Source of the DNA: Barthelona sp. PCE
Lineage: Eukaryota
Direction of reading: 5' to 3'
NCBI GenBank assembly: GCA_040285745.1
Contig: JAUFOR010000001.1
Coordinates: 248,001 to 312,000 of the forward strand
Length of the DNA stretch: 64,000 nt
Numbering within the stretch: position 1 is the first letter of the stretch; every line of letters begins with the position of its first letter. Positions 1,565 to 48,651 of the stretch are shown here, piece after piece. The position numbers and the translations under genes were made by a program. Below the pieces are notes generated by a model that was not told the origin of the DNA, made no database searches, and saw nothing but the letters and a program-made list of their open reading frames with translations.

Positions 1565-2210
1565 GCGTAGGCAAAACATTGCTTGTTTATTATTTGTGTA
1601 TCAGACTAATTTTTGTTTTTAACCGTTGTCACTAAGCTAAATGTGTAAATTTTCAAACGGGATATTGAGCAATTTTCGTTTCAGTTTGTACGCAGTTCTT
1701 CGGAATTTTATTTTTTGTTCTCTTTAAATGGTTTGGCTGTTATATACTCTTACAATGTTATGTTTAAGATGTGCAAACCATGTTTTTACATCAATATGAA
1801 AGTAAACTTTCTGTTGTTAACAATGTGACGATGTTATACATTATTATGCATTACTAAGAGGCATACAATAGTTCTAAAATGCAAATTACAGGTGATATTA
1901 GTAGATTAAACTGAAGTTAGATAACCTCCATTTTCAACCTTTGTGTATTAATATAATTTGAGCTTTACCTGTCTATAAAGCGGAGTTAAATAAGAAGTTA
2001 ACGAAATATACGCTACTTATTAAAATTTTTTGCAAAGCTCTAATGAATTTGGGACATCTTTCGGTACAAACCTATTAGTACAATTTTACATGTGTCAAAG
2101 CTGAGTAAAGTCGAGGTCATAGCAGGCAAGAAGTGTGAGAATGTTGTCCAAACTCAACCACTCCTACTTTGTCTTTTTTCTAGCTTTTAAGTTTTTAAAG
2201 GAATTTAGTC

Positions 2211-4856
2211 ATGCCGAACTTCACCGTTGAAGAGCTTTTAGCTCAAATGAGGTATGCATACCTTCCAACGAGCTTCAAATATTCACAACCCATTTTTTTT
2301 TAACTTGTGTTTGTGATTTAGTTCGTTTACCACACTGAACATGCTCACACCTAGTCAACGCGATACTATCCGTTCACTTTCCGTTATTGCACACGTCGAT
2401 CGTATGGATTTATTTTTTTAGAGACGAAAAACTTATATTTAGACGGTAAGTCCACCCTTACCGATTCCCTCGTCGCACGTGCTGGTATCATCGCCGATCA
2501 GAACGCCGGTGAGGCCCGTCACACTGACACCCGTAAGGATGAGCAGGAGCGTGGTATTACCATCAAGAGTACCGGTATTTCTATGTTCTTCGAGTACAAG
2601 AAGCACGGTGAGGACGATGAGAAGGGTTACTTGATTAACCTTGTCGATTCTCCTGGTCACGTTGATTTCTCTTCTGAAGTCACTGCTGCCCTCCGTATCA
2701 CCGATGGTGCTCTTGTTGTTGTTGATGCTATCTCTGGTGTTTCTGTCCAGACTGAGACCGTCCTTCGTCAAGCCCTTTCTGAGCGTGTTCGTCCCGTTCT
2801 TATGCTTAACAAGCTCGATCGTGTCTTCCTTGAGACCAAGCTTCCCCCGGAGGAGGCTTACCAGTCTTTCAACAAGAACATCGAGAACATCAACGTCCTT
2901 ATCTCTACCTACGGTGATCCCGCCGTTGGTAACCACACCTGTGACCCCCGTGATGGTACCGTTGCCTTTGGTGCCGGTCTCCACGGTTGGGGTTTCACCC
3001 TTACTCACTTTGCTGAGATGTATGCTGCCCGTTTCGGTATTCCTTTCGAGAAGATGATGACCCGTCTTTGGGGCAACAACTTCTTCGATGCCAAGGCCAA
3101 GAAGTGGCGTAAGCGCGCTCAGGAGGGTATCCAGCGTGCCTTCTGTCAGTTCATCCTTGACCCCATCTACCGTGTTTTCAACGCATGCATGGGTGAGGAT
3201 AACACTGCCCTTGATCGTATGATCCCCGTCTTTGGTATCGATCTCACTCCTCAGGAGCGTGCCTTGACCTCCAAGCCCCTTCTTAAGACCGTTATGCGTA
3301 AGTGGCTCAACGCTGCCGACGCTCTTCTTGAGATGATTGTCCTCCACCTTCCTTCTCCCGTCGTCGCCCAGAAGTACCGTGCTGAACACCTCTACACTGG
3401 TCCCCACGATGATGAGTGTTATCAGGCCATTGCTAACTGTGACCCCAACGGTCCCGTTATGGTTTACATCTCCAAGATGATTCCTTCCGGTGATGGTTCC
3501 CGTTTCACCTGTTTCGGTCGTGTCTTTTCTGGTACCGTCCGTTCTGGTCAGCGTGTCCGTATCCTCGGTACTGATTACAACCCTGAGGTTTCCAACAAGG
3601 ATCACTGTGATGTCAAGAACGTCCAGCGTACCTGTATTATGATGGGTAAGATCAACGAGGCTGTGTCTGCCATTCCTTGTGGTAACACTTGCGGTCTTGT
3701 CGGTATTGATCAGGTCCTCAAGAAGACCGGTACAATCACCACTTCTGATGTCGCCTATCCTATCAAGACCATGAAGTTCTCTGTCTCACCCGTTGTGCGT
3801 GTCGCCGTCGAGTGTAAGAACACTTCTGATCTTCCTAAATTGATTGCCGGTCTCGACCGTCTCTCCAAGTCCGATCCTTGTGTCCAGATTACCGTCTCCG
3901 AGGGTAACGAGCACATTGTCGCTGGTGCTGGTGAGCTCCACATTGAGATCTGTATCAAGGATCTTCGTGAGGATTACGCTGGTGTTCCTCTCATCGTCTC
4001 TGAGCCCGTCGTCTCTTTCCGTGAGACCATCAAGGGTGAATCCGAGCGTGAGTGTCTTGCCAAGTCCGCTAACAAGCACAACCGTCTCCACGTCATTGCT
4101 AAGGAGCTTCCTGAGGAGGTCGTCAACGCCCTCTGTGACAAGAAGATCAACCTTCGTCTTGACCCCAAGACTCGTGCCAAGTTCATGGCTGACGAGTACG
4201 GTTACGATGTCGAGCTCGGCCGTGGTATCTTTGGTTTCGGTCCCGACTCCCGTGGTCCTAATGTTATTATTGATTCCACCAAGGGTGTTCAGTACCTTAA
4301 CGAGACCAAGGAAACCATCAACGCCGGTTTCCAACTCGCTACCCGTGCCGGTCCTCTTTGTGAGGAGCCTGTTCAGGGTGTTGAGTGGCATCTTCTTGAT
4401 GCTACTTTCCACGGAGATGCTATGCACCGTGGTGGTTCCCAGGTTACTCCTGCTGCTCGTCGTGTCCTTTGCGGTTCTATGATCTGCGCTGAGCCTACTC
4501 TCCTCGAGCCTTTCTATCTCGCTGAGATCACTGTTCCCCAGGGTTACATCTCTGCTTGTTACAACGTTCTCATGCAGCGTCGTGCTGAAATCCTCGGTGA
4601 GGATCCTTCAGGCCGTGGTGATCTGACCAAGCTTTCTGCTTTGATCCCCGTCCTTGAGTCTTTCGGTGTCGATCGTGCTCTCCGTCAAGCTACCTCCGGT
4701 TACGCTTTCTGTCAGCTCGTCTTCGATCGTTGGGCCAAGCTCAACTCCAACGCTACTGAGGAAGGTTCCAAGGCTAACGAGCTTGCCATGGCCACCCGTC
4801 AACGTAAGGAGATTGGTGAGATCAGAGGTCTTAGCTACTGGACCGACCGTATGTAG
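2211..4856 (+). CDS. EEF2: Translation elongation factor 2; exons 2211-2251, 2355-2401, 2443-4856
   Basis: Spliced N-terminus [39 protein letters not shown], then RGITIKST, DSPGHVDFSSEV, NKLD, GAGELH and diphthamide loop DAMHRGG; strong C/T-ending codon bias. Confidence 0.97.
2252..2354 (+). other. Spliceosomal intron 1 of EEF2 (103 nt)
   Basis: GTATGC...GCTCACACCTAG; removal joins AG|T (Ser) and restores the eEF2 N-terminus. Confidence 0.9.
2402..2442 (+). other. Spliceosomal intron 2 of EEF2 (41 nt)
   Basis: GTATGG...ACTTATATTTAG; removal joins C|AC and restores the invariant AHVDHGKS G1 motif. Confidence 0.96.
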
Positions 4857-4922
4857 ATTTGAACGTCTAAATAAATTACATTGAAAATAGTTTCAAATTG
4901 ATACAAGAATTTATTGTAGTTT

Positions 4923-7184
4923 CTACTCTTCTTTCTCGACACGATCAATCATGGTGATGGCATCAGCGGGACAGTAAAGTTTGGCACAAATACCACAACC
5001 AATACACTTATCCTCGTTGGTAACGAGCATTCTTTGCTTGTTACGAACAATAGCAAGATAAGGACATCTGGTACAGTTTCCGCAGTTAATACACTCATCA
5101 TTGTTAACCAAAGAAATGCGCTTGACACCGGTGAGGTCCATAAAGTCAGTGATAGGTTCGGGAGCAGCACGACCAATAAATGAGTCAATGTCGCTGATAT
5201 TGAGCTCTTGGAACATATGGCTGAGACCACTGCAAAGATCCTTAACGATGTTAACACCGGAGTGATAAGCTATTGAGCAGAATTGAAGTCCGCCCTTGAC
5301 ACCTAAAGCGAGGAAATCAGCACAGTCGCGGTAGTTCATGAGACCACCATTACCAGAGATGGTAACACCAAGATTAATGACGCTGGCCAGTGACAGGCAG
5401 GAGATGGGGAAGACGCCTGATCCGTGCATACCGGTGGTTCTGGCTTCGAACCAACCGTTGGGGTTGAACTTGACGGGGTCACGGTTGAAACCAAGAGAGG
5501 GGAATGAGTTGGCGAGTGTGACGGCTGGTTGTTTCTCGGGGTACTTGTCAAAAACGGCCTTAAGTGCTTTGATGATCGTGGCAATTGAAGTAACGGCAGC
5601 GGTGAGTTTGAAAATCTTGGGGACTTCGGGCTTTGAAGCTTCGAGAATCCAATCAACAATCTGGGCTGCCTTTCTGGCGCTTTGGGATACAATATTGCCT
5701 TCAGAACCATCACCTCCCTGTGGACAACTGAGGGAGTATTCGACGGCGTGACATCCGCTGTCGTCAAGCATACGGGTATTGCGTTGCCATCCTGCCTTGT
5801 CGAACTCGGGATCGCCAGTAACAGGACCACCAGTAGCACCAATGATGATACGATCCGGGAACTTCTCTCTTAAAATCTTGATTTCCTCAATGACGCGCGT
5901 GAGGGGATGATGACTGACGTTGTCACAGTTACCATACGTACCATCGTCGAACATGTGCATGTACTCGTTAGGGATATGTATGTCGACCTCATGGAATGCG
6001 GTCTTTAAGACAACACCTCCCCATCCTGCGCGGAGACCCTTCATACAGGGCTCTAAGCCGTCAGAGAAAGGTGATGCGCTGAGGATGAAGGGGTTCACCA
6101 TCTTGTGACCGAAGAAAGAACACTCCAGGGACACAGGCATCTCATCATAAAGATCCATGGTTTGACGGGCACGCAGCTTGCCAACACCCTTTGACTTCAT
6201 GAAATCACCAGCAATCTTCTTTCCAAAGGCAACTGCCTCAACAACGCTACCATTCTTGTTCTTCTCAAGAGATAAGCAGTCAATCTTGATCTCAGCACAT
6301 GGAGGCATGTGATAAGCAATGGCAATTCTGAGCTTCTTCAAAACTTCGAGATATTGAGTAGGCAGCTCCAACTCCTCACCCTCAGGAACTACAATAACTG
6401 TCTTGTTGCCCAGCTGATAAGAGCGGACGGCGACGTCAAATGTGACATGGGTGTAACCAAAAACTGCAACGTGGTTTTCAACCTTTGGTGCTGTTTCGAA
6501 GAAGGTGAAGGGAGTCATGTGCTCCTCCAGGAAGTCAGTGCGGGGGTTAGTGGCATCGATTTTATCGGTCATGGCCTCGGCCTCTTCCTCGTTGATTACT
6601 TCAACAAGGGGATGCTCTAAAACGGCAGAAATATCAGCGGTGCGGATTTCGGCAGGGAGGCGGTATTCAGGAATCATGTTCATACCTCCACCGAGAGTTT
6701 TGGCAGAGATGCGTGCTGGGACACCTTGGGAAGCAAGAGCAGCAGCAGCGCTGATAGCAGCGGGACCACCACCGATGACACAGACGGGTTCCTCCACAAC
6801 GGGCTCAACGGTTTTGTACTCAAGACCAAGCTGACGGGCTCTGTGTACAATGGTGGCTTGAATACGAGGAATGTCAACTGGAGTACCCAAATTCTTCCTT
6901 ACGCACTTCTTGACGCAGAACTCGTCAAGACAGACGGCTCCACATATTCCACCAAGTGGGTTTTTGTTTAAAATAAGCTTTGCGGCCCTAATGTAGTCAC
7001 TATCACGGCCCATCTTGATAGAACGAATCATATCACGGGGGTTAATGCCGACAGGGCATCCTGCAGTACATTTGGGGGCTTCACAATTGAGACAGCTCTT
7101 AATTGCTTCATTAAAAGCACCTGGGCTTAAGATTGCGGGAGAAGTGTTGGTGGAGGAGAAAATATCTTCAATATCAATAAGCAT
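4923..7184 (-). CDS. Dihydropyrimidine dehydrogenase-like Fe-S flavoprotein (PreT-PreA type fusion)
   Basis: N-terminal CLNC..PKCTAGCP and NPLGGICGAVC clusters, IGGGPA FAD motif, FMN barrel (NPFILSASP, GWGGVVLKT, LSCPQG, ISGNGG), C-terminal 2x[4Fe-4S] CINCGNC / CIGCGIC. Confidence 0.88.
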   Translation of the reverse strand: MLIDIEDIFSSTNTSPAILSPGAFNEAIKSCLNCEAPKCTAGCPVGINPRDMIRSIKMGRDSDYIRAAKLILNKNPLGGICGAVCLDEFCVKKCVRKNLGTPVDIPRIQATIVHRARQLGLEYKTVEPVVEEPVCVIGGGPAAISAAAALASQGVPARISAKTLGGGMNMIPEYRLPAEIRTADISAVLEHPLVEVINEEEAEAMTDKIDATNPRTDFLEEHMTPFTFFETAPKVENHVAVFGYTHVTFDVAVRSYQLGNKTVIVVPEGEELELPTQYLEVLKKLRIAIAYHMPPCAEIKIDCLSLEKNKNGSVVEAVAFGKKIAGDFMKSKGVGKLRARQTMDLYDEMPVSLECSFFGHKMVNPFILSASPFSDGLEPCMKGLRAGWGGVVLKTAFHEVDIHIPNEYMHMFDDGTYGNCDNVSHHPLTRVIEEIKILREKFPDRIIIGATGGPVTGDPEFDKAGWQRNTRMLDDSGCHAVEYSLSCPQGGDGSEGNIVSQSARKAAQIVDWILEASKPEVPKIFKLTAAVTSIATIIKALKAVFDKYPEKQPAVTLANSFPSLGFNRDPVKFNPNGWFEARTTGMHGSGVFPISCLSLASVINLGVTISGNGGLMNYRDCADFLALGVKGGLQFCSIAYHSGVNIVKDLCSGLSHMFQELNISDIDSFIGRAAPEPITDFMDLTGVKRISLVNNDECINCGNCTRCPYLAIVRNKQRMLVTNEDKCIGCGICAKLYCPADAITMIDRVEKEE

Positions 7185-7338
7185 GTGTATTTAAGGTTGT
7201 TTGAAAGGTGAAAAACAACTGAAAAGGGATAGAAAAGGTGTAATGATAAGAGGCTGTTGATGTTGTTTTAAAGGGAAGTGCATCGTTTTAACAGAGCGGA
7301 TTGTGATCTAAGAGCACAGATGATAGCTGAATATCTGT

Positions 7339-7557
7339 CTAATATGAACTTAGGGGGTTGCAGAATTTTTTTGTTGGGTTTCGCTCATCTTTATAGGAAA
7401 TTTGCATTGTTTTATTGGCTAATCTAAGCTTTATTGGTACTTTTCGAGCAAGGTTAAGTTGTCTGGATCGCTGGAATAGAGCATAGCGAGAATTTGTTGA
7501 ATATTTTAAGCAGGAACATTGGCTAAAAATGTAAACAACTAATATGAATACGATCAT
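7339..7557 (-). CDS. Possible small secreted/basic protein, 72 aa
   Basis: ATG start, signal-peptide-like N-terminus (MIVFILVVYIFSQCSC); fills the gap between two same-strand genes; no homology recognised. Confidence 0.3.
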   Translation of the reverse strand: MIVFILVVYIFSQCSCLKYSTNSRYALFQRSRQLNLARKVPIKLRLANKTMQISYKDERNPTKKFCNPLSSY

Positions 7558-7595
7558 TTATTGTGTCTATATGCACTCATGCACACGTACAATGC

Positions 7596-8630
7596 CTACT
7601 CTTCAGTTTTTTGCAATTTCAAGGGAAGACCTTCAGCTTCAGCAGCAGCTTCAGCTTCTCTCATCCTTTCTTGTTGCCTGGCACGCTCCTCATCCATGTC
7701 ACTGATGTAACGGTGATAGATTGTGTTGCCATCAAGTAAACCATCCAAAATCTTGATTAACTCCAAACTAATACGTGGGCCTATCTCAACCAACCTTATT
7801 CTCTGATTCTTTTGGTTAATTTTGATCGATGGCTTGGGCATCTTGTCCGACTCATCCTCTGTTTCTGTTTCAACGTCTGTAGTATCAAATTCAGCATCAT
7901 AATCAAAATTGGGGTTATGCTCCAAGAAATCTTCAAATGAGTCAAACTTCCCAAGATAATCAGCCTTCTTCTTGAGCTTCCTCTCCAAAAAGGTTTCTTC
8001 GTCCTCCAAACGTACTGCATAGTGTCTCATCTCGATTAAGTCAGTCTCAGCATTGCGCTGAAAAAGAACAACTCGTTGGCATGCGCTAATTGAGATCTCA
8101 TTTACCTTGATTGGCGGGAAACTGTTCTGTATGGTCCTGGAGACGATTGCAAGCACGTCTTCCGACATTCTAATGTAACCATCAGTTTTGCCTTTGAACA
8201 CTTGCCTCCTCTTAAACCCATTAAGAATGCACAGGGCGGGTGTGATGTATCTGGTTGAGCCCAAAACAGGACGCTTCTGTGATCTAGCGATATCAGACAT
8301 ATTACTGTATTGTTTAACACGGAAAATCAAGCTAGGTCCATCCTGTAAGCGTAAGAATTTTAGAGTGGCGCCTTCCCGTGGTGTGGACAGTACCAACATA
8401 TGTGAAATCTTAAGTGGAACACTGAGTTTAACAAGATCGTTCAGTGTATTGCTTTTGCGAAACTTTAAGTTAGTTGCTGTTCGTGGCTCCCACACTCTAC
8501 GTAGGTTTCCCATTAAATCTTTTAGTTCTGGAGCACATTTTCCTCTAACGATGATAACAGTTCTTGGGCCCTCGTCTTCTTCAATAACATCCCTCACATG
8601 CGTTCGCTTCTTTCTGTGTCTAAGTGACAT
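7596..8630 (-). CDS. PPAN: Brix-domain ribosome biogenesis protein Ssf1/Peter Pan
   Basis: RKKRTHV N-terminus, LRRVWEPRTATNL, GPSLIFRVKQYS, IEMRHY, IRLVEIGPRISLELIKI. Confidence 0.92.
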   Translation of the reverse strand: MSLRHRKKRTHVRDVIEEDEGPRTVIIVRGKCAPELKDLMGNLRRVWEPRTATNLKFRKSNTLNDLVKLSVPLKISHMLVLSTPREGATLKFLRLQDGPSLIFRVKQYSNMSDIARSQKRPVLGSTRYITPALCILNGFKRRQVFKGKTDGYIRMSEDVLAIVSRTIQNSFPPIKVNEISISACQRVVLFQRNAETDLIEMRHYAVRLEDEETFLERKLKKKADYLGKFDSFEDFLEHNPNFDYDAEFDTTDVETETEDESDKMPKPSIKINQKNQRIRLVEIGPRISLELIKILDGLLDGNTIYHRYISDMDEERARQQERMREAEAAAEAEGLPLKLQKTEE

Positions 8631-8934
8631 TGCTAAAAAACACTGATATGGGTGAAATTTAGGATATGTTGGCGATTCTTTATGAAATTTCTCGAGGAAT
8701 GGGACGCATAAGTCTAATCAGATGTATTAACCACAGTACAGTGTGAAAACTGCACTAAACAATTACAGAACCCTACAAAACACAATCTAACCCTTTTGTT
8801 TTTACAGGGCGGCAATTTTTGTTGTAACCACTTGGATTAACCACACCTTTTTGTTTTTGCTATCTTTATTTGTTTAGGCAGTTTTTACTATTCTTAATTT
8901 TTTTTACCTTTCGTTGCTTAACTTTTATATCTAA

Positions 8935-9933
8935 ATGTCCGAAGAAAACGAAATACCAATCGAAGAAACCACGATCTCTGAAGAAGTTGTTGAGGAACAA
9001 GAACATATTGAAGAAACTATTTCTGACGAACCAGCTCCTATCGAAGAAGCTGAGCATGAACCTGTTCAAGAAGACGAAGAGGTTACCGAGCACCCAGTCG
9101 CAGTCCTGTATATTATGAATTTTGCGGAGAAGGATCGAAATTTTTTGACCAAGTACTTCAGCGATTTCGGTAAAGTACTGAACATTGATTTTAAAGTAAG
9201 AAACGACGGTATCCCTTACTGCTTTGTTCATTTGAAGCCGGATGATGATCCGGAACTGATTTATGGAGAGCATTCCGTGGAGGACCGTTTTTTCGAGGTC
9301 AAGCCGTATGTGCGTTCTTCAGGTCCTTCATCTGTTCATGTTTCTTACGAACGCGCGCCATCGGAGACGGATCTTATGGAGGCATTCAGTGTCTTTGGGG
9401 AAGTTTCTTTCATTTATCTAAGTCGCAATTTCGCAAGAGTTCGTTTTGACACAAGAGAACCAGCGGAAGAGGCTATCCGTTTGGGAAAGGTCACAATCAA
9501 CGGCGAGGTAATGGGTGTCAAACCGTGGCATGGTTTCAAGGAGGAAGACCGAGTGCAAACGCATCAGACTTATCCTGTGCTTCCCAACTCATCATCTAAT
9601 GCATCTCCGTTTGTATACAACCAGCCACAGCAGCCTATTGCACAGGAGGTTCCGCCTCCGCCAATGGACATGCCAATGGAAGTGCGTATGGCCTACCAGA
9701 CTTACATGAACTGGTATTCCTATGCTCAACGTCCTCATCATGTACAGCCACAACCTCAGCATCATCATCATCATCACCAACAGCCCCAGTACAATAGATA
9801 TAGTCAACCACAGCACCATCACCATCATGCGGCACCTCAGCATGCTACGTATCAACCTGTCATGCCAGTCCAGGCACCTGTTCATCAGTGGGGAGGATAT
9901 CCAAAGACTTGGGGGAATGATTATCATCGTTAA
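8935..9933 (+). CDS. RNA-binding protein with two RRMs, acidic N-terminus and P/Q/H-rich tail
   Basis: YFSDFGKV...YCFVHL and AFSVFGEV...NFARVRF RNP-like motifs. Confidence 0.8.
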   Translation: MSEENEIPIEETTISEEVVEEQEHIEETISDEPAPIEEAEHEPVQEDEEVTEHPVAVLYIMNFAEKDRNFLTKYFSDFGKVLNIDFKVRNDGIPYCFVHLKPDDDPELIYGEHSVEDRFFEVKPYVRSSGPSSVHVSYERAPSETDLMEAFSVFGEVSFIYLSRNFARVRFDTREPAEEAIRLGKVTINGEVMGVKPWHGFKEEDRVQTHQTYPVLPNSSSNASPFVYNQPQQPIAQEVPPPPMDMPMEVRMAYQTYMNWYSYAQRPHHVQPQPQHHHHHHQQPQYNRYSQPQHHHHHAAPQHATYQPVMPVQAPVHQWGGYPKTWGNDYHR

Positions 9934-9949
9934 TAAAGTTTATTTTCCT

Positions 9950-11236
9950 TTAGTCAATGATTCTGTTGATGTTAAATTCGTTAGATAAAGGGCTTTCCGT
10001 TTCTGAACGAGGACTCACCAATGTAAGGGAATTGAACTCCAAATTTTCATCGTTAATCGATATAACAACGTTCTCAGGTGGGATAATAGGTGAAATAACT
10101 GATGAAGTGGTTGGAATTTCGTTCATTTGAGTGAGATCTGTATGATCAACCTCTTTTGTTGGTGTTTCACTTCTCTCGCTCTCTGTTTCGGTATCAGTTG
10201 ATGCTGCCACTATTGTTTCATTCGTTTTGACTTCTTCTTCAGAGTTCAGGTATTGATTGCTTATTCTTTGACTGTTTGCTGGTCTCGACGGCCTATTCGT
10301 GGCGTTATCTATGCAACGTGGCACGCATGCACTCCCTTCATTTGCTTCCTCTTGCGTAGGTGCTCGTAGTCTCTCCTCATTTGCAGGTGTCGTTGGTTTA
10401 ACTTCCACTTCTTCCTCATCATCAGAAGTCGGATTGCGTGAAATTACCACTGCCCGCGATGTCCTTCGTACTTTAGGCATGCGATGCCTTCCTAACTCTG
10501 CTTTCTGTTTCGCCATTCTCTGTTTGACAATAAACTCAAAAGTAGTCATATTATGGGCGATAAGGTTGATGTGGAAGAATAGAAGTTGTAAAATCAAAAC
10601 ACAACATGGTATTGATATTACTGTAACGACTGTGATACCAATGAGCAGGAAAATTGGTGATGAATGACGGAGATACTCGTTGTATACAGGCTGAAGCTTG
10701 AACAACCACGAGCAAACAAGATAAACGCCCAAAAATAGAAATACTAACACTAAGAAGCTGGATATAGATAGAAAAACAAAGAACGCTTTATAGTTTGCGT
10801 TTCCAATACAATTATTTAACCATACACAGTGGTGATCAAAGCGTTCGGTGCATTTGTTGCATATCCTGCAGTGTTTTGATTCCTTTCTTACAGTCGTATT
10901 GCAGTAATTACAGAAATTCTTTCGACTGATTGTTCGTTTTCCCCTCTGTAAAGGTTGCCATATGATAAACTTGCGTGACCTATCGAGGTTTCTATCTGCA
11001 GGATTGATTGCTGTGCATATGATGTTTGATATCCACATGCAAACATAAAAAAAGACACCAACCCATAAAAACCATGTGCTGAGGGGATATGGGAGTACAG
11101 CTATGTAGAAAAAGACATAACAAAAGCCAAATACAACCATTAGAATCCATGCAACAATTTGAAGTCCTGCCAAGGGACGATTAAACCCGTTTCTTCGCAC
11201 AGGAACCTTGGTGCCCGGGGGGTATGAGCGCACCAT
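9950..11236 (-). CDS. DHHC palmitoyltransferase (ZDHHC1/11-like)
   Basis: SKHCRICNKCTERFDHHCVWLNNCIG, TTFE motif, 4 TM segments, N-terminal RRNGF. Confidence 0.93.
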   Translation of the reverse strand: MVRSYPPGTKVPVRRNGFNRPLAGLQIVAWILMVVFGFCYVFFYIAVLPYPLSTWFLWVGVFFYVCMWISNIICTAINPADRNLDRSRKFIIWQPLQRGKRTISRKNFCNYCNTTVRKESKHCRICNKCTERFDHHCVWLNNCIGNANYKAFFVFLSISSFLVLVFLFLGVYLVCSWLFKLQPVYNEYLRHSSPIFLLIGITVVTVISIPCCVLILQLLFFHINLIAHNMTTFEFIVKQRMAKQKAELGRHRMPKVRRTSRAVVISRNPTSDDEEEVEVKPTTPANEERLRAPTQEEANEGSACVPRCIDNATNRPSRPANSQRISNQYLNSEEEVKTNETIVAASTDTETESERSETPTKEVDHTDLTQMNEIPTTSSVISPIIPPENVVISINDENLEFNSLTLVSPRSETESPLSNEFNINRIID

Positions 11237-11314
11237 AAGATATACTTACCAATGAATTCGTTCCCAACGACGAAAAAAGATGAAAAAAATTTAACACGCC
11301 AACAATCAATTTAC

Positions 11315-12400
11315 TTAAATTGGAACCGAATTTCCACTGTAATTGAACACAAAGTCCGAATTGAATGCAACATCATCAACATCAGCTGCCTGATCATCAG
11401 TATAAGTTTTCCTTTTCGCCAAAATCGACATTTGCAACCGTTCCATCAACGTTCGCATGACAATTATGTTGGTTTCTATAGAACTGAGACGGTCAATGGT
11501 TATTTCCTTTTTTGTGTGAGTATTCCAATGGGCTATGGAAATATGTGCACAAATAAGGAGGATCCTTACTGTAACAAATGCAATTGAGCCGAACCCCAAA
11601 TGTATCCTATATCTTTGATTGCAAAAAACAAACACAAAAAACAAGAGAAAATGAAAAAGTCTTCGTTTTTCGAGAAAGAGAAATAAAAACAGGCAATACA
11701 CAATGTACTGTAATAGAGACCCTATTGTAACATGTCTTGAAAGCAAAAAAGTGTTCAAACTATTCAAACTTTTTTGTAAACCTCCAAGTAAACCGCTATA
11801 TGCCTCTAGTAACTCTATTTGCTGAGAATGTACCTCGTCATGCAACACAACAAACTCATTGAAACCCTCATTGAGTTTAGAAAAAGAACTGAAAAATTTT
11901 TTCTGTAGAAGGTTTGCATCTTCTATTAGCTCCAAAGTTATTGCACTACTTTCTAACAAACTCTCGAAATGGGTTACAAAGAACTCATTGAACTTGGTTT
12001 GGTCAAGAAAATGACAGAAATTGTGTGCAAAATTTAGGTAGATTGAAAAACTTGTAAATAGTTGATATTTCAATAATTCTCCCTTGCATCCCCTTGCATT
12101 CCAGGCACTGCACCGCAGTTCCTGATCGAAAATTTTCTCTACATAGCAGTTAAGAAGTCGGAGAGCCACATACTCACGATCAACATCTCCTAGCATATTA
12201 CAGTGTTCTTTGATGTCTCTGTCCTCGTAAAGACTCACCCAGCACGTTGAATAGTTGCCAGGAAGCTCTATATTAGATATTACATCCCTATATCGTTTGG
12301 AGAAGTTTTTTAATATAAAATTGCCCTCAGAAACAATATTATCTATCTTTGCCGTCGATATAACTAACAAGAAGAAAAAAAAAATTAGCCTGTAAGACAT
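11315..12400 (-). CDS. GEX1: GEX1/KAR5/Brambleberry-family nuclear membrane fusion protein
   Basis: Signal peptide, Cys-rich domain CW...C...ALRLLNC...C...C...F..F...CHFL, coiled-coil-like segment, about 3 C-terminal TM helices. Confidence 0.75.
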   Translation of the reverse strand: MSYRLIFFFFLLVISTAKIDNIVSEGNFILKNFSKRYRDVISNIELPGNYSTCWVSLYEDRDIKEHCNMLGDVDREYVALRLLNCYVEKIFDQELRCSAWNARGCKGELLKYQLFTSFSIYLNFAHNFCHFLDQTKFNEFFVTHFESLLESSAITLELIEDANLLQKKFFSSFSKLNEGFNEFVVLHDEVHSQQIELLEAYSGLLGGLQKSLNSLNTFLLSRHVTIGSLLQYIVYCLFLFLFLEKRRLFHFLLFFVFVFCNQRYRIHLGFGSIAFVTVRILLICAHISIAHWNTHTKKEITIDRLSSIETNIIVMRTLMERLQMSILAKRKTYTDDQAADVDDVAFNSDFVFNYSGNSVPI

Positions 12401-12571
12401 TGAAAACAAAAAAACACGTATTACTATGTTTTTTGCATATAGTTGTCCTAAATTCCTTTAAAATATCTAAATACACCATAATTAGCTTGAAAAATACGCA
12501 AAACAAAGAAATACAATGATTTATCGTTTATCACCATTTTCAAATCTTTTGGCTGGTCATATCCTGTATAT

Positions 12572-14182: not shown

Positions 14183-14255
14183 ATATTAAGGTCATGTTTT
14201 TTTTTATTTCCCTTTTCACTTATTTTCAAGGTGCAGTTTTTAAAGCGGTGATTAT

Positions 14256-17316: not shown

Positions 17317-17450
17317 TGAAAAGGATAAAAAAATGTAAGTCGAGTGTACAATGATAAACTCACACAATTAAAGGATAAACAACCAGCAATAGCAATATGT
17401 AAACTGTTAAACATTATAGAGTCTTTGGCGGAACAAGCACAGTTATTTAT

Positions 17451-18017
17451 TTAGTATGTAAAACACACGGAATCTCTGATATTATCAGATACTTCAGCGC
17501 TGACTATGTGGCGGACCATCTCCAATGCCCACTCAACAGAAGTTCCCAAAGCACGAGAGGTGATAATCTTAGCTTCAATCTCGACAACAACATTATCAGT
17601 TTTATAAGTGACGTTATCAGCAGCAGAGATGATCTCATCCTCAACACCAGGCCAGCTTGTACATGAAAGATTATCAAGTAAGCCACATCTGGCGAGAATC
17701 ATTGGAGCTGCACAAACAGCACAAATCCATACACCGCGTTCCTTGGCGCGTTTGAGCTCTTCATGTAAGATTTCATGCTCAGCAACAACGCTAAAGGTAC
17801 CAGGACCACCAGGGACAACAAAAGCATCATAATCATTGCCATTAAAATCTTCCCAAGTGATGTCAGCCCTAAAAGTGAACCCATGTGCGCCATTTATCAT
17901 GATTGCATTGGTTAGAGAGATCATATCGACATCTACTTTGGCTCTTCTTAAGATATCTACAGCTGAAATCATCTCACATGGCTCAATACCATTAAATGTA
18001 AAAACCGCAAACTTCAT
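17451..18017 (-). CDS. DJ-1/PfpI (ThiJ/YajL) family protein
   Basis: GIEPCE..SAVDILRRA, YDAFVVPGG, AVCAAP nucleophile elbow, IITSR. Confidence 0.92.
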   Translation of the reverse strand: MKFAVFTFNGIEPCEMISAVDILRRAKVDVDMISLTNAIMINGAHGFTFRADITWEDFNGNDYDAFVVPGGPGTFSVVAEHEILHEELKRAKERGVWICAVCAAPMILARCGLLDNLSCTSWPGVEDEIISAADNVTYKTDNVVVEIEAKIITSRALGTSVEWALEMVRHIVSAEVSDNIRDSVCFTY

Positions 18018-18340
18018 CTATGTGTGTGTGTGTAGTTGAAAACGTTAAAAATGTGAACAACGTAAAAAAGCAGGAAACAATGCTTTGGAATGCAGAATGT
18101 ACTAATTGTGGTTTTTCATGAATTATTGTGTACTTTGACCACCCATTTGATTGGAAAAGACTATATTCTTTGTTGTGCTTGGTTTTGACACTCAAAGCAT
18201 TGTTTTTGCATAATTATGGTTTGAATGTGTAGAATACGGATTAAAATATTAACTACCTTAATATTTTACCAATGAATATCGGATCATTGAACATAGAAAT
18301 GTTTTAGCAATACAAACCCATTTCAAGGAGCATTTATAGT

Positions 18341-20050: not shown

Positions 20051-20332
20051 CATAGTTAAGTAAATCCATAGTTTTTGGTGCCAGTCACATCATCATAAGT
20101 TTTTCTTGTTTTTACAATTCATGAGAGAGAGATAGAGAGGCTGGCGTGACTGATGTTCTTGTGGACAGTTCTAAATTTATCCAAAGAAGAATTTGTTTCT
20201 TGGTTTACAACCCATTCGTGTGCTTTTGAACACTTTTCTTTTGCACTAGCTTCACTAAAGAACCGTTTTTATCCTACTCAAACATTCAAAACAACTTTCA
20301 AACGTTTCTACACCTTTTTACATATTGTCATA

Positions 20333-20764: not shown

Positions 20765-20853
20765 TTATGACATTAAAATAATTAAAAAGCAGTCAGTTTG
20801 TGTTAATAAAGAAAAAATGAAAAATTTTACAAACAATTCAGCTGTCTGACATT

Positions 20854-21741
20854 CTAAATCATAAAGGCAAGATCTCTGTTGGCAAGACCATCACCAAAAT
20901 AACATCCTAAGTAAACAGAAGAGTTGACAACGTTGGAGAAAACAAATCCAGGCCACTTCAAGTTAACAATGTAGATACAATTACGAACAGAATCATAGTT
21001 CAGGTTCCAGCTTGATGTTAAAGCATCATCCAAGACTAAGGAATCCATGAATTCAACAGCAGCATCTAGTTGAGTTTGTGCACTACTTGCTGTGCTTGTC
21101 TTTTCACGGTTGTGGAAGTAATAGCCGAGATCCTTACATTTCTCCAGAGGAAGACCATTGTATGTGGGGTTCTGTCTGACGATATCAGAAACTAAATCTT
21201 TAATAAGAGCGCCACGAGGAACAATGTCATTGTCGTAGCTGATGAGGCTGAATACGTATGCGAGTCTCACTGCCTCTGTTACATCATTAGGATTTGGCTT
21301 ATCCTCATCCTCTTCTTCTTCTTCTTCTTCTTCTTCCTCGCCTTCTTCTTTCTCAGGTTTAGGCTCGGGTTCGGGCTTAGGACCAGGGTATATGTAACTG
21401 GGATCACCCCTGAAAGGTACATCGATCATCTTTGCGTTTTGAGCATTAACTTCAGAAAATTGTGGCATCATAACCCAATCCATGCAGTTGTGACTAAATG
21501 TAAGGTGAATATGTTGTTTAAATGGTTAAAAATACGAATAAAATGCTTGTTTCTCAGAGTTCTTGGTTTTTCCTTCGACAATAAAGTAATCCTTGTACAG
21601 ACCGGAAATTTTACCCCAAAATTTTACGTCAACAAGGTGATATGAGTCTCTAAGAATGGGCAATGACAACCTTAAAGCTGCCTTATGCTCAGGACTAAGG
21701 ACACATCCGTACGTTTCTAATAGCTCCAAATCGTGAATCAT
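20854..21741 (-). CDS. RSPH9: Radial spoke head protein 9; exons 21741-21536, 21493-20854
   Basis: G..LSPE.KAAL..SL, FWGKISG..KDYFI, F.GDPSY, IVPRGA, LKWPG, YFGDG..NRDLAFM; two ORFs joined by a 42-nt intron. Confidence 0.92.
21494..21535 (-). other. Spliceosomal intron of RSPH9 (42 nt)
   Basis: Minus strand GTATTT...CCTTACATTTAG; contains a stop; removal gives FYS|HNCMDW in frame. Confidence 0.9.
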
Positions 21742-22638: not shown

Positions 22639-23075
22639 ATGGTATGAATCTTAAGCATCTGCCGTGTCTAGACTCTTACATTTAGGTTTTCAAGCGTTTC
22701 TTCGAGGTTGGTCGCCTTTGCCTCGTAAATTACGGCCAAAACAGTGGCAAGCTGGGCCTTGTCATTGATATTATCGATGCCAACCGTGTCATCTTCGGTT
22801 TCGAGAGCGGCGAGCGTGCCGTTGTTCCCACCAAGCGTCTCACATTGACTCCTCAAGTTGTTACCATGCCCAGAGGTGTCCGTACCGCCAAGCTGTTAAA
22901 GATTGCCGATGAGACCAAGGTTTTCAAGCAGTTCCACGAATCCAAGTGGGGTCAGCGTCGCGTTGCCGCTGAGAAGAAGAGATCTCTCAACGATTTCGAG
23001 AAGTTCGCTGCTATGGTCGAGCGTCGCGAGCGTGCCAAGCTCATTAACCGCAAGGTTAAGGAGCTCAAGCAGTAA
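22639..23075 (+). CDS. RPL14: 60S ribosomal protein L14 (eL14); exons 22639-22641, 22686-23075
   Basis: Spliced MVFKRFFEVGRLCLVNYG..GKLGLVIDIIDANRV; LNDFEKF; high-expression codon bias. Confidence 0.95.
22642..22685 (+). other. Spliceosomal intron of RPL14 (44 nt), immediately after the ATG
   Basis: ATG|GTATGA...TCTTACATTTAG|GTT. Confidence 0.92.
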
Positions 23076-25555: not shown

Positions 25556-27746
25556 ATGATGTACACCTTCAGCGAAGTACTAGAACTCTTCGTTGAGACA
25601 GATGAAAGACCAGAGCTAAAAGAAGATCTCAAAGCTTTTGGTTTCGAGATTTTCACGCGTGAAGCAATCAAACCATTCTCCTTTTTCGACTTCGACATGG
25701 AAGCTGTATGTATTAACCACACCTAAGCATAGTTGCGCACATTGTGGTCCCTTTTTTATTTTAGCTAACCTTTAGGCATTGAAGAAAGCTCAGCAAGAAA
25801 ACCAGAAAAACTCTAGAAACTCGTATAGAAAGGGTAAGAAGCGTGGATCACGCCGAGAATACAATCGTGACCGTCATGAGCCAAAACAGCAAGTCCAAGG
25901 TAAGAACTTAAAGAAGTTCCAATTGCCAACTAACAACCAGGCCGGGCTCATTGGTGAGCTTGAGGAAACGAGTTTCCAAATGTCAAAAGTTGAAAAGAAA
26001 GAGGTGGCCGTAGAAGGGTGCTGGTTTTACAAGGATGATGACAATAACGTTCAGGGACCTTGGGATTCTGCATCCATGGACCGCTGGTATGCTAGTGGAT
26101 ACTTCCATAATCTGATTTTATTGCGATATAAGAACGATGCAGCTTTTACTTCTCTTGAAGCTCGATTTTCTGGTTTCGATGGTGTTTCATTCGTCGAGGC
26201 AGAACAACGTTGCAAACAGCGTGGTAAGAAAAAGCCCAAGAAGCAACAACCCAAAATAGTTGCACAGAAACCAGTTGTTGTTGAAAAACCAGTTGAAGAA
26301 AAAGCAGAAAAGGAAGAACCTGCCTTTGGTGCGTTCTCGTCCTTCATGGAGCCAAACAAGCCTCTCTCCTTTGATTTTAACGCAAACCAAAACGATTCTT
26401 TCTGGGACAGCAAGCCGTCCTTCAGTTTCGGTTCAATGCAACCAGCTGATGTACCTTCTACCATTGTGCCAGATAGAAACTTAAAAGATGTATTCTTCGA
26501 GTCACCTGTCGCTGAGCAGCCAGCTATTGAAGTTGAGCCTAAAGTTGATCAAGTTGAAAAACCAGCTGAAAAACCCATGCGCGTTATCGTGCCGGATCCC
26601 GAACCTATCAAACCTCGCAAGAAGAAGAAGAAGAAGAACAAGCAGCAACACGAACAGTCCTTCTCCAACAATGACCTTCCTGCTGCTAATCGAGCCAAGA
26701 ACGTCACCAAACCAGCTCCCAAGAAGACGACCGAGGGAATCGTTGTCCCAAAGGCGGTCATCACTGAGAAACCAATGACGAAGGTTGAGAAGATTCAAGC
26801 CCATGCCAGTAACGTTGTAGTTAGCAAGGTGAGCAAACCGTCCAAGAATTTACTCCCTGCGATATTTGGAAACTCGCCCAGCACTCCCATCACAGCAGGC
26901 AACAAGTATTCATCAAACACGACACCAAACAACGCTGGTGCCAAGTTTTCGTCAAAGGTGAAGGTGATGAAGGTCAAGCCCACCGCTCACCAATTCTCAA
27001 CGGCTGATTTCTTCCCTGGAATGAATGCTTCACCTACGCCAGTTAAGAAGCAAGCGGGTATCAGAGCAGCCGAGACGACATCTATTAAGTCGATGCAGGA
27101 AGAGGCCAAGCGAACCAAGAAAGTTGTCAAGAAACCCGCACCTGTAGCAGCAGGACCGAAGAAAGTGAAAGTCACCCGCGTTCAGAAGCAGCCCAAGCCT
27201 ACCGGTACGATTGCATCCCTCGCATCTCGTCTTTCACAGAAGGCGCCTGCCGTTAACGTTGAGAAGCCCAAACCCAAGCCAAAGAAGCCTATCATCAACG
27301 TTCGTGTTGGAGAAATTGAAGTTCATAGACAACCCAAACCATCTGCCAAGAAGCCTGTCGTTGTTCGCAATGTCACTGTATCCCGTGCCAAGAAACCAGT
27401 TGTTGTTGCCGTTGAGAAGCCTGCTCAGGTTCGTTCTACAAAGAGAAGCAACCGTAAAGGTGTCGATTTGAACTCCGATTTGTGGTCTGCCAACAAACCA
27501 AAGAAGACAACAAAGAAGACTCTCGAGTATAATTCCCTCTCTGACCCTTTCAAACGTTGGATTAGAACTGAATTAACCAGTTTATCAAGCGGAAAACTTG
27601 ATATCGACATTAACACTTTTATCGATATGGTTCTACCCATGGATGACAGCACAACTCAAACGTTATGCATGCAGACTCTGCGTGGTCGTAAAGATAGAGT
27701 TCGAGAGTTTACTACTGAGTTTATCAGGCGTCGTAACTTTGAATAA
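25556..27746 (+). CDS. GIGYF/Smy2-like GYF-domain protein; exons 25556-25705, 25776-27746
   Basis: GYF domain WFYKDD..VQGPW..MDRWYASGYF; GIGYF-type C-terminus F.RW...DINTF...EF..EF.RRR; N-terminal YTFSEVLELF. Confidence 0.85.
25706..25775 (+). other. Spliceosomal intron of the GYF gene (70 nt)
   Basis: GTATGT...GCTAACCTTTAG; phase 0, joins MEA|ALKKAQ and supplies the ATG missing from the 655-aa ORF. Confidence 0.88.
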
Positions 27747-40069: not shown

Positions 40070-40914
40070 TTAGTTAAAGGCACTGTTATTAGGTAAAGGA
40101 CAGGTTACGCCATCAATAGGCTTCCTGAAAATAGTGGCCTTTTCATCATAAATGGCAAAATAACCGGAGACATAAATAAAGTGATCACGGCTGCAAGTTT
40201 TGCTGGCATTCATTGTGGTACCATCGATTGTAAGGTACTCGCCAACGGGCATGGCCTCATCGGGAATGAGTGGAATGACTTGATCAGCGTTAGTTCCGCA
40301 CAATATCATACCCTGCGATACAACGCCAGCAAGCTTTGTGTGTTTAAGATTGGTGACGACAACAACGCGCTTGTTAATGAGCTCCTCAGCGCTGAAGTAC
40401 TGGGAAATGCCAGCAACAACTGTGATTGGCTCTGATGAGCCAATGTTCATGGTAGTGATCATTAGCTTATCGCTCTTAGGGTGAGGTTCAGCATTTTCGA
40501 TCTGTCCCACACGGAGAGCAAGCCTGGAGATGGCCCTTTGGTTGCCTTCTGAACTTAAGTTGTGTAAGTCCAAAGGATGCATTTTGAGTGCACAAGATTG
40601 TGATCCCTTAAAGTGACAGACTGGACACTCTGTTTCGAATGGATATGTCATGAGGAATCCACAGTCCTTACAACGTTGCATTGATGTGATTGGAGTAAGT
40701 AGACCATTAAATTCAATAGCCCAAGGAGCGTCAGGATGTACGTGAACAGCAGGCACATCATGCTTTTCCTCTAAGCCAGATATGAGTTCGTCGAGCATTT
40801 CTGCTAAATGTTAGGTAAAATTATTGTTGTTTATCACGTGATAGGCGCCCAGTAGGTCATTATGTGTACTTTTCCCGTAGCCCCGTACCCGTCTAACATA
40901 CTTGCTTTAGACAT
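40070..40914 (-). CDS. tRNA-binding OB-fold protein (Trbp111/Arc1p/EMAP II-like) with an N-terminal CxxC...CxxC zinc ribbon; exons 40914-40902, 40803-40070
   Basis: LRVGQI..AEPHPKSDKL, VVAGI, VVTNLK..KLAGVVSQGMILC; RCKDCG...CPVC. Confidence 0.85.
40804..40901 (-). other. Spliceosomal intron (98 nt) of the tRNA-binding protein gene
   Basis: Minus strand ATGTCTAAAGCAA|GTATGT...CCTAACATTTAG|CAGAAATG gives in-frame MSKATEMLDEL. Confidence 0.8.
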
Positions 40915-47854: not shown

Positions 47855-48651
47855 ATGGCTATCGGTAAGAATAAGAAACGCTGGAAGGCTGTTAAGCGTA
47901 AGGTGTATGTTACCGCATCGTATACGTGTGTATGAAGCTTACATTTAGTGATCCCTTTGATCGCAAGGAATGGTACAGAATTCAAGCTCCCATCTCCATT
48001 TTCAACACCAAGTTCGCTGGTGAAACTGTTATCAACAAGACTCAAGGTCTTATCAAGGCTGAGGATCGTTTATTAGGTCGTGTCTTCGAGCTTTATGCTG
48101 GTGACCTCAACGCTGATCCTTCTGATCACTTCCGCGTCATCACTCTTCGTTGTGATATGGTTGAGGGTGACACTTGTTTGTGTAACTTCCACGGAATGCG
48201 TCTCACCACTGACCGTCTTCGTGGCCTCATCAAGAAGCGCCAGTCTCTCATTGAGGGTTACGCTGATGTTGTAACTGAGGATGGTTTCCGTCTCCGTGTC
48301 TTTGCCATTGGTTTCACCAACCGTCACCGCAACCAGATCCGTGAGGGTATCTACTCCAAGAACTACGCCAACGCTCAGCAAACCAAGAAGATCCGTGAGG
48401 CTTTCCTCACCGTTATCCGTGAGGAGGTTGAGGGAGTTACTCTTAGCGCTTTCTTGAAGAAGGTCCTTACCAAGGATTCCATTACCAAGAAGATGGTCTC
48501 TGCTGCTAACAAGTTCTACCCCGTCAAGGATGTTTACATTAGCAAGATTAAGACTCTTAAGGGTTCCACCAGAATGACTACTGACGTCGTTAGAGCTTTC
48601 CACTCCGGTTCTGCTCCTACTGCTGAGGGTCAATCCACCAAGCGTGACTAG
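47855..48651 (+). CDS. RPS3A: 40S ribosomal protein S3a (eS1); exons 47855-47904, 47949-48651
   Basis: Spliced MAIGKNK...KRKVDPFDRKEWY; GRVFE, NFHGM.LTTD.LR. Confidence 0.96.
47905..47948 (+). other. Spliceosomal intron of RPS3A (44 nt)
   Basis: GTATGT...GCTTACATTTAG; joins GT|T (Val). Confidence 0.94.

What the first reader, a model, noticed from the sequence alone, without database searches (positions are those of the whole stretch)
2252..2354. The long EEF2 intron folds back to the standard ~42-nt effective length
Seen: AACGAGCT (2267-2274) can pair with AGTTCGTT (2320-2327, one G-U), and inner TCACAA (2283-2288) with TTGTGA (2311-2316). The unpaired flanks are 15 + 27 = 42 nt, matching the 41-44 nt of the four short introns. 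Known: stem-loops that shorten long cis-introns have been described in diplomonads and parabasalids and are considered related to their trans-spliced introns. Inference: a length-constrained spliceosome accepts long introns only through RNA structure, which could also be a regulatory handle.
Basis: partly seen in the sequence, partly recalled or inferred. Interest (0 to 1): 0.7.

Follow-up and report, generated by a model that had tools for sequence, protein, structure and literature searches.

The report
Zipper stem in long Barthelona intron
The unusually long first intron of the elongation factor 2 gene of the tiny-genome flagellate Barthelona carries a stable internal hairpin that leaves about as much unfolded RNA as the organism's normal 41-44-base introns, a trick already known from Giardia, Spironucleus, Trichomonas and yeast.

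Summary
The window is Barthelona sp. PCE. The 103-nt GT..AG intron at 2252-2354 is real. The annotated 833-aa EF2 needs exactly this splice. Contigs of two public runs join 2251|2355 and 2401|2443 with no mismatch.

The fold beats shuffles: z -2.66, 1 of 200; z -2.75, 12 of 1000 with splice signals held open. Unpaired flanks are 15+27 = 42 nt.

The window's two other long annotated introns (70 and 98 nt) fold the same way, to 37 and 41 nt. Their stability is not clearly better than shuffles.

The length match alone is weak evidence. Shuffles of the EF2 intron leave a median of 41 nt.

Best reading: a length-compensating "zipper" stem, described for Giardia, Spironucleus and Trichomonas (PMC6679479) and for yeast (PMC12350175), here in their sister lineage. 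It is a new member of a known kind. Necessity for splicing and any regulatory role are untested.

The parts
2211..2251 (+). EF2 exon 1 (ATG to the first two bases of codon 14)
   Evidence: Sequence. N-terminus [14 protein letters not shown] of the annotated protein P0002. The transcript-like contig starts at 2175.
2252..2354 (+). EF2 intron 1, 103 nt, GT..AG, phase 2: the finding
   Evidence: P0002 requires its removal. Contigs of runs X1 and X2 skip 103 nt GT..AG here with 0 other letters.
2252..2257 (+). 5' splice site GTATGC (window consensus GTATG/GTATT, 7 of 7 begin GTAT)
2267..2274 (+). 5' arm of the outer 8-bp zipper stem, AACGAGCT
   Evidence: Pair probabilities 0.74-1.00.
2320..2327 (+). 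3' arm of the outer stem, AGTTCGTT (one G-U)
2279..2316 (+). Inner part of the stem-loop. The MFE pairs 2279-2281 with 2312-2314 and 2284-2288 with 2305-2309. The loop holds a U9 run.
2344..2354 (+). Fused branch-point / 3' splice-site motif CTCAC-ACCTAG, inferred branch A at 2347 (7 nt before the intron end)
   Evidence: Same CTNAY-NNNTAG spacing in 7 of 7 introns of the window. The branch A is inferred, not mapped.
2355..2401 (+). EF2 exon 2 (47 nt)
2402..2442 (+). EF2 intron 2, 41 nt, short class
   Evidence: skips 41, GT..AG
2443..4856 (+). EF2 exon 3 to the stop codon
   Evidence: Translation P0001 is 100% identical to P0002. The contig runs to 4867.
21494..21535 (-). 42-nt short intron (GTATTT...CCTTACATTTAG) in a radial-spoke-head-like gene
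   Evidence: Joins a 68-codon exon with a Radial_spoke hit to a 212-codon open frame. The splice is inferred from motif and frame only.
22642..22685 (+). 44-nt short intron directly after the ATG of ribosomal protein L14e
47905..47948 (+). 44-nt short intron in ribosomal protein S3Ae
25706..25775 (+). 70-nt long intron of a GYF-domain gene. Stem ACCACA 25716-25721 / TGTGGT 25743-25748. 10+27 = 37 nt left unpaired.
   Evidence: The annotated 706-aa protein P0123 equals 50 + 656 codons joined here. Fold.
40804..40901 (-). 98-nt long intron of a tRNA-binding-domain gene. Interrupted 15-bp helix spanning 40836-40892. 9+32 = 41 nt left unpaired.
   Evidence: The annotated 248-aa protein P0122 begins MSKATE-MLDEL, which needs this splice. 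Fold.

Best explanation
The 103-nt first intron of the Barthelona sp. PCE EF2 gene contains a zipper-type stem-loop. The outer 8-bp helix is 2267-2274 / 2320-2327. [quoted passage not shown] That leaves 15 nt on the 5' side and 27 nt on the 3' side (19 nt up to the inferred branch A at 2347). The single-stranded path across the intron is then 42 nt, like the organism's 41-44-nt standard introns. The proposed mechanism follows. Barthelona has rigid splice signals: GTATG at the 5' end and a branch motif fused to the 3' splice site at a fixed 7-nt spacing. [quoted passage not shown] The stem brings the two reactive sites of a long intron to that span, so the early spliceosome can bridge them. Shown: the intron and its exact borders, the stem and its thermodynamic excess over shuffles, and the same architecture in the two other long introns of the window. 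Inferred: that the stem forms in vivo, that the branch A is at -8, and that the stem helps or is needed for splicing.
For: Organism and splice: P0001 is 100% identical to the NCBI protein of Barthelona sp. PCE. That protein's N-terminus needs removal of 2252-2354 and 2402-2442. One contig each in runs X1 and X2 (one study) joins across both introns with 0 other letters. Stem: it is in the MFE with or without constraints, at 37 and 22 C. Pair probabilities are 0.74-1.00. z is -2.66, 1 of 200, and -2.75, 12 of 1000. Only 3 of 159 native 100-nt windows reach z <= -2.6. A stem of this quality with flanks of 41-44 occurs in 39 of 5000 shuffles. Boltzmann sampling gives a median of 42 exterior unpaired nt, 10-90% range 39-44. 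Replication in the window: 3 of 3 long annotated introns (103, 70, 98 nt) fold into a single stem-loop leaving 42, 37 and 41 nt, with 5' flanks of 15, 10, 9 and 3' flanks of 27, 27, 32. From the shuffle nulls, the chance that all three lie within 5.75 nt of the short-intron mean is 0.034; for a range of at most 5 nt inside 35-48 it is 0.023. Signals: 7 of 7 introns have GTAT... and CTNAY-NNNTAG. Precedent: the same arrangement is described for Giardia, Spironucleus and Trichomonas (PMC6679479) and for yeast zipper stems (PMC12350175).
Against: The effective-length match is weak alone. Shuffled EF2 introns leave a median of 41 nt (5-95%: 23-66), and 11.9% fall in 41-44. Of native 100-nt windows, 9.4% fall in 41-44. 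An 8-bp stem occurs in 687 of 5000 shuffles. The two other long introns are not clearly more stable than shuffles: unconstrained z -1.06 (30 of 200) and -0.40 (63 of 200); constrained z -2.61 and -1.12. Measured the same way, 3 of 4 short introns fold to a median of 20-27 unpaired nt through weak hairpins of -0.7 to -4.4 kcal/mol. The equality therefore holds only if weak hairpins are ignored. The sample is 3 long and 4 short introns from one 64-kb window. There is no covariation evidence, no structure probing and no mutational test. The ranges used in the positional tests were chosen after seeing the data.
Confidence: 0.6

Rival explanations
1. Chance fold. The stem is an accident of a 103-nt A+U-rich sequence, and the Barthelona spliceosome tolerates long introns without help from structure.
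For: 8-bp stems occur in 687 of 5000 shuffles. The null median of unpaired length is already 41 nt. Two of the three long introns are not significantly stable in unconstrained shuffles. Short introns also 'fold' under the same measure.
Against: Overall fold z is about -2.7 under two control designs, and only 3 of 159 native windows do as well. The joint chance of energy at least as good and length 37-44 is 0.003. The single-stem architecture with similar flanks recurs in 3 of 3 long introns. The pattern is also known from related lineages.
Confidence: 0.27
2. The structure is real but serves another purpose. It might mask a cryptic 5' site (GTGATT at 2313-2318, exactly 42 nt from the 3' end). 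It might act as a switch with the alternative helix that pairs the 5' splice site (2252-2258) with 2336-2344. It might be the remnant of an inserted inverted-repeat element, or a small RNA gene.
For: The unconstrained MFE adds a 7-bp helix between GUAUGCA and UG..CAUGC next to the branch motif, worth about -2.7 kcal/mol. GTGATT lies inside the stem-loop. In yeast, structures around cryptic sites are reported, as are zipper stems used in autoregulation (PMC12350175 passages; PMC12311795, start of the abstract as printed in the search listing only).
Against: No Rfam family matches the window at gathering score; in 2150-2500 the best of 3 weak matches has E 2.1. No second copy of any of the three long introns is in the window beyond 10-14-nt chance matches. 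GTGATT departs from the GTAT seen in 7 of 7 introns. Nothing links EF2 to splicing-level regulation here.
Confidence: 0.1

Closest known systems
Stem-loops in 'long' cis-introns of Giardia lamblia, Spironucleus vortens/salmonicida and Trichomonas vaginalis (Hudson et al. 2019, PMC6679479; abstract and passages read)
   Same: An intron-poor metamonad with a uniform short intron class (S. vortens 40-42 nt, S. salmonicida 43 nt, Giardia 35-45 nt effective). An extended 5' splice site and a branch point at an invariant distance from the 3' splice site. Introns over 50 nt with an internal stem-loop that brings the single-stranded distance to the short-class length. Here the short class is 41-44 nt and the long introns fold to 37-42 nt.
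   Different: A different lineage: barthelonids, which the genome paper places in the BaSk clade, sister to Fornicata (PMC11316075). The 3' motif here ends in TAG in 7 of 7 introns. The host gene is EF2 rather than a ribosomal protein gene. That paper gave no shuffle statistics in the passages I read. No trans-spliced introns were looked for here.
Zipper stems of Saccharomyces cerevisiae introns, e.g. RPS17B (Rangan et al. 2025, PMC12350175; passages read)
   Same: [quoted passage not shown] At least 6 bp. It begins about 10 nt or more from the 5' splice site (here 15, 10, 9).
   Different: [quoted passage not shown] Here the linkers sum to about 34 nt to the branch A, and the stem ends 19 nt from it. 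Yeast introns are several hundred nt long, and their branch point is not fused to the 3' splice site.
Trichomonas type A (over 50 nt) and type B (much under 50 nt) introns (PMC12316389; passages read)
   Same: Two length classes with extended conserved motifs. The authors cite stem-loops as the reason length does not hinder splicing.
   Different: The Trichomonas short class is about 25 nt (stated in PMC6679479) against 41-44 nt here.

Membership tests
Length-compensating stem-loops of long metamonad introns (Giardia/Spironucleus/Trichomonas type) | Host genome has a uniform class of short introns that sets the reference length | tested here: met
   4 of the 7 introns in the window are 41, 42, 44 and 44 nt. 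This covers the window only, not the genome.
Length-compensating stem-loops of long metamonad introns (Giardia/Spironucleus/Trichomonas type) | Extended 5' splice site and a branch motif at an invariant distance from the 3' splice site | tested here: met
   7 of 7 introns begin GTAT(G/T) and end CTNAY-NNNTAG with the A 7 nt before the end. The branch A is inferred from the motif, not mapped.
Length-compensating stem-loops of long metamonad introns (Giardia/Spironucleus/Trichomonas type) | [quoted passage not shown] | tested here: met
   42 nt for the EF2 intron; 37 and 41 nt for the 70- and 98-nt introns. The null expectation is also near 40 nt.
Length-compensating stem-loops of long metamonad introns (Giardia/Spironucleus/Trichomonas type) | Structure exceeds what composition gives by chance | tested here: met
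   EF2 intron z -2.66 (1 of 200) and -2.75 (12 of 1000). For the other two long introns it is inconclusive.
Length-compensating stem-loops of long metamonad introns (Giardia/Spironucleus/Trichomonas type) | Stem kept, or compensated, in orthologous introns of relatives | not testable with these tools
   No genome is held. The next-best EF2 proteins are at most 58% identical. The metagenome scan gave one locus at 51% identity. Runs X1 and X2 are identical to the window.
Length-compensating stem-loops of long metamonad introns (Giardia/Spironucleus/Trichomonas type) | Stem forms in vivo and contributes to splicing | not testable with these tools
   Needs structure probing and mutagenesis.
Yeast zipper stem (numerical definition of Rangan et al. 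2025) | [quoted passage not shown] | tested here: met
   8 bp, beginning after 15 nt. Definition.
Yeast zipper stem (numerical definition of Rangan et al. 2025) | [quoted passage not shown] | tested here: not met
   19 nt to the inferred branch A, and 15+19 = 34 linker nt. It works like a zipper stem but lies outside the yeast-derived limits.
Intron-encoded small RNA (snoRNA, miRNA or any Rfam family) | Match to a curated covariance model | tested here: not met
   0 matches at gathering score in the window. In 2150-2500 there are 3 weak matches; the best has E 2.1 and lies far below its gathering score.

The most novel reading that the evidence does not exclude
In Barthelona, described by its genome paper as apparently the smallest genome known for a free-living eukaryote, the spliceosome may act as a molecular ruler. 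[quoted passage not shown] Every longer intron would then carry one stem-loop placed 9-15 nt after the 5' splice site and 19-24 nt before the branch A. Because barthelonids are sister to Fornicata, the rule would predate the Giardia/Spironucleus lineage and perhaps all metamonads. It would also predict that fragmented, trans-spliced introns can arise in barthelonids, and that stems such as the EF2 one could be used to tune splicing.
Probability: 0.3. Interest if true: 0.55.

Novelty: new member of a known kind. Interest (0 to 1): 0.35.

Why it matters
Barthelonids were sequenced only recently, and their genome paper mentions introns only in its methods (PMC11316075: 1 occurrence of 'intron'). 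My library searches for Barthelona plus intron and barthelonid plus splic- found no paper that treats their intron structure.

If the pattern holds genome-wide, the 'fixed spatial distance' rule extends beyond diplomonads and parabasalids to a free-living sister lineage. That would support an old, shared simplification of splicing in metamonads. It would also offer a compact genome in which to test how a reduced spliceosome measures introns.

For annotation, it gives a practical rule. Introns here are either 41-44 nt, or longer with one stem-loop. All have GTAT at the 5' end and CTNAY-NNNTAG at the 3' end.

Tried and rejected
- **Whole genome:** none is held for this window, so the genome-wide census of introns over 60 nt could not be run.
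- **Sequencing runs:** The look-up of sequencing runs listed no RNA holder, only three runs whose kind is guessed as DNA.
- **Read laying:** not answered, and answered. Most of 5335-21999 had no cover there, so nothing can be said about the 42-nt intron at 21494-21535 from these runs. X1 and X2 showed no differing letters, so they give no variation to test the stem. A 153-nt 'joint' at 3358/3512 and one at 11659/20282 rest on 21-22-nt sides and on records with other letters; I set them aside as other organisms or low-complexity sequence.
- **Relatives:** the metagenome scan with EF2 gave 1 locus at 51% identity (L001), too distant. Among proteins, the next-best EF2 after the Barthelona entry is at most 58% identical.
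- **Small-RNA reading:** Rfam found nothing.
- **Mobile-element reading:** no repeats of the three long introns in the window.
- **57-nt intron-like element:** 58064-58008 on the minus strand (GTATGA...CTAACTACTAG), 386 nt upstream of the pyruvate:ferredoxin oxidoreductase ATG. It has no coding context, folds no better than shuffles (z +0.97), and could not be tested for splicing. I left it out of all counts.
- **Other motif pairs inside long ORFs:** searches list about 20. I rejected them as chance because the unspliced frames are open and long.
- **Supplementary files:** those of PMC6679479 (folds of all T. vaginalis introns) and PMC11316075 (possible intron statistics) were closed. They may hold numbers that bear on the comparison.
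Full report
**What the window is.** The long exon downstream of the finding translates to an elongation factor 2 (P0001). It is 100% identical to the NCBI entry 'hypothetical protein PCE1_004518 [Barthelona sp. PCE]' (P0002, 833 aa, on a 1.33-Mb contig). The next-best EF2 proteins are at most 58% identical. Barthelona sp. PCE is a free-living anaerobic metamonad of the 'BaSk' clade, sister to Fornicata. Its genome is 10.2 Mb with 40.3% G+C and 5064 predicted proteins. Its gene models were trained on RNA-seq (PMC11316075, passages read). That paper uses the word 'intron' once, in its methods.

**The intron is real, and its borders are exact.**
- P0002 begins [35 protein letters not shown]. That is what the DNA gives if 2252-2354 (103 nt, GTATGC...CCTAG) and 2402-2442 (41 nt) are removed.
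- One 2550-nt contig of run X1 and one 359-nt contig of run X2 cover 2175-2249/2181-2249, 2353-2401 and 2443 onward. They carry two joints, 'skips 103, GT..AG (cut +2)' and 'skips 41, GT..AG', with no differing letters.
- The two runs belong to one study, and their kind is only guessed as DNA.
- In the 20 kb that was laid, the only long error-free pieces from X1 and X2 lie on this gene. The share of words they hold fits the spliced mRNA. I therefore read these contigs as transcript copies. This is my inference, and the tool's label is a guess.
- No unspliced contig was listed, but contigs drop rare forms.

**The observation.** All four sequence strings sit at the stated coordinates.
- The outer helix AACGAGCT (2267-2274) / AGTTCGTT (2320-2327) has 8 pairs with one G-U.
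- It is in the minimum-energy fold with or without constraints, at 37 and 22 C. Its pairs have probabilities of 0.74-1.00.
- The inner helix is ambiguous.
- The flanks are 15 and 27 nt, 42 together. Boltzmann sampling gives a median of 42 exterior unpaired nt (10-90%: 39-44).

**Is it more than chance?**
- Energy: -16.0 kcal/mol against -9.6 +/- 2.4 in 200 dinucleotide shuffles, z -2.66, 1 shuffle as good.
- With the 5' splice site (6 nt) and the branch/3' motif (12 nt) held open and fixed: -13.3 against -7.1 +/- 2.3, z -2.75, 12 of 1000.
- Random 100-nt windows from the same 64 kb have z 0.02 +/- 1.08, and 3 of 159 reach -2.6.
- The stem alone is not rare. 687 of 5000 shuffles have a stem of at least 8 bp with at most one G-U. 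With flanks summing to 41-44 the count is 39 of 5000.
- The length match alone is weak. Shuffles leave a median of 41 unpaired nt (5-95%: 23-66), and 11.9% fall in 41-44.
- The case for this intron therefore rests mainly on the excess stability, and on where the stable helix sits.

**The other introns of the window.** A motif and reading-frame scan finds seven introns.
- Short class:
  - 2402-2442 (41 nt, EF2).
  - 21535-21494 on the minus strand (42 nt), in a radial-spoke-head-like gene. Exon 1 hits Pfam Radial_spoke. This splice is inferred from motif and frame only.
  - 22642-22685 (44 nt), right after the ATG of ribosomal protein L14e.
  - 47905-47948 (44 nt), in ribosomal protein S3Ae.
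- Long class, besides the finding:
  - 25706-25775 (70 nt), in a GYF-domain gene.
  - 40901-40804 on the minus strand (98 nt), in a tRNA-binding-domain gene.
  - Both splices are in the public annotation. P0123 has 706 aa, which is 50 + 656 codons. P0122 has 248 aa and begins MSKATE-MLDEL.
- All seven begin GTAT(G/T) and end CTNAY-NNNTAG, so the likely branch A is always 7 nt before the intron end. Hudson et al. describe an invariant branch point to 3' splice site distance for Giardia.

**Do the other long introns behave alike?** With the splice signals held open, each of the three long introns folds into a single stem-loop.

| Intron | Unpaired nt | 5' flank + 3' flank |
|---|---|---|
| 103 nt (EF2) | 42 | 15 + 27 |
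| 70 nt | 37 | 10 + 27 |
| 98 nt | 41 | 9 + 32 |

- The medians in the ensemble are the same.
- Drawing from each intron's shuffle null gives three estimates. The chance that all three lie within 5.75 nt of the short-intron mean is 0.034. The chance of a range of at most 5 nt is 0.065. The chance of such a range inside 35-48 nt is 0.023.
- These ranges were chosen after seeing the data.

Results against the reading:
- The 70- and 98-nt introns are not clearly more stable than shuffles. Constrained z is -2.61 (19 of 1000) and -1.12 (132 of 1000). With the tool's unconstrained shuffles z is only -1.06 (30 of 200) and -0.40 (63 of 200).
- Under the same measure, 3 of 4 short introns fold to a median of 20-27 unpaired nt, through weak hairpins with ensemble energies of -0.7 to -4.4 kcal/mol. 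The equality of lengths holds only if such weak hairpins are taken not to form.

**Other readings tested.**
- No Rfam family matches the window at gathering score. Only chance-level matches lie in 2150-2500. An intron-borne snoRNA or similar RNA is therefore not supported.
- None of the three long introns has a second copy in the window, so nothing suggests a repeated inserted element. The rest of the genome could not be searched.

**Mechanism.** I think the helix acts as a zipper stem.
- About 34 single-stranded nt then lie ahead of the branch A. The short introns have 33-36 nt there (their lengths minus 8).
- In a spliceosome with rigid signals and a fused branch/3' site, this would let the early complexes bridge the two sites.
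[quoted passage not shown] The Barthelona stems sit at 15, 10 and 9 nt, and at 19, 19 and 24 nt. That is about as close as the yeast models allow.
- The total linker (about 34 nt) is below the yeast minimum of 42 nt. It works like a yeast zipper stem but does not fit that numerical definition.
- That the stem forms in vivo, and that it is needed, is inference.

**Comparison and novelty.** Hudson et al. 2019 (PMC6679479) report the same arrangement for Giardia, two Spironucleus species and Trichomonas. They suggest it may be more widespread. The 2025 Trichomonas paper repeats the idea (PMC12316389).
- The finding is therefore a new member of a known kind, in a lineage where it has not been described. 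Searches for Barthelona plus intron and barthelonid plus splic- found no paper on it in the held library.

**Limits.** The sample is three long and four short introns from one window. There was no whole genome, no DNA from relatives, no structure probing, and the supplementary files of the cited papers were closed.

Noticed in passing
window 2175-4867: The spliced EF2 contig of run X1 spans 2175-4867. That implies a 5' UTR of at least 36 nt before the ATG at 2211, and about 11 nt after the stop codon that ends at 4856, so the UTRs are very short. Runs X1 and X2 are guessed to be DNA but hold the spliced form.
   Followed up: partly
window 2251-2262: The exon-intron junction lies in a perfect 12-nt palindrome, GGTATGCATACC. 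In the unconstrained fold the 5' splice site GUAUGCA pairs with UG..CAUGC (2336-2344), directly before the branch motif, which adds about -2.7 kcal/mol.
   Followed up: partly
window 40893-40899 and 40808-40814 (minus strand): In the 98-nt intron the 5' splice site region AUGUUAG is a perfect 7-nt complement of the branch motif region CUAACAU. Weaker pairing of the intron's 5' end with its branch-motif region also appears in the unconstrained folds of the L14e and S3Ae introns. It may be a by-product of the two consensus sequences, or a way to juxtapose the sites.
   Followed up: no
window 2313-2318: GTGATT lies exactly 42 nt from the 3' end of the long intron, inside the stem-loop. It is a possible cryptic 5' site of ideal spacing, though it departs from the GTAT seen in 7 of 7 introns. 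Using it would run into a stop codon.
   Followed up: no
window 58008-58064 (minus strand): A 57-nt intron-like element, GTATGA...AAACTAACTACTAG, lies 386 nt upstream of the pyruvate:ferredoxin oxidoreductase start (57622). It has no coding context and no better-than-shuffle fold (z +0.97). It could be a 5' UTR intron or a chance match.
   Followed up: partly
window 8727-8735, 8837-8845, 16061-16069, 25713-25721: TTAACCACA occurs 4 times against 0.93 expected, and 0 of 100 shuffles reach 4. Two copies lie in the intergenic region upstream of the gene starting at 8935. One forms the 5' arm region of the 70-nt intron's stem. It may be a promoter or protein-binding motif.
   Followed up: partly
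window 2291-2300, 25751-25762, 2411-2419: U-rich runs recur in these introns: U9 in the loop of the EF2 stem-loop, TTTTTTATTTT before the branch motif of the 70-nt intron, and T7 in EF2 intron 2.
   Followed up: no
window 4923-7184 and 54065-57622 (minus strand): The neighbouring genes are typical of an anaerobe. One is a 753-aa protein with a dihydropyrimidine-dehydrogenase-type 4Fe-4S domain and a C-terminal dicluster. The other is a 1185-aa pyruvate:ferredoxin oxidoreductase.
   Followed up: no
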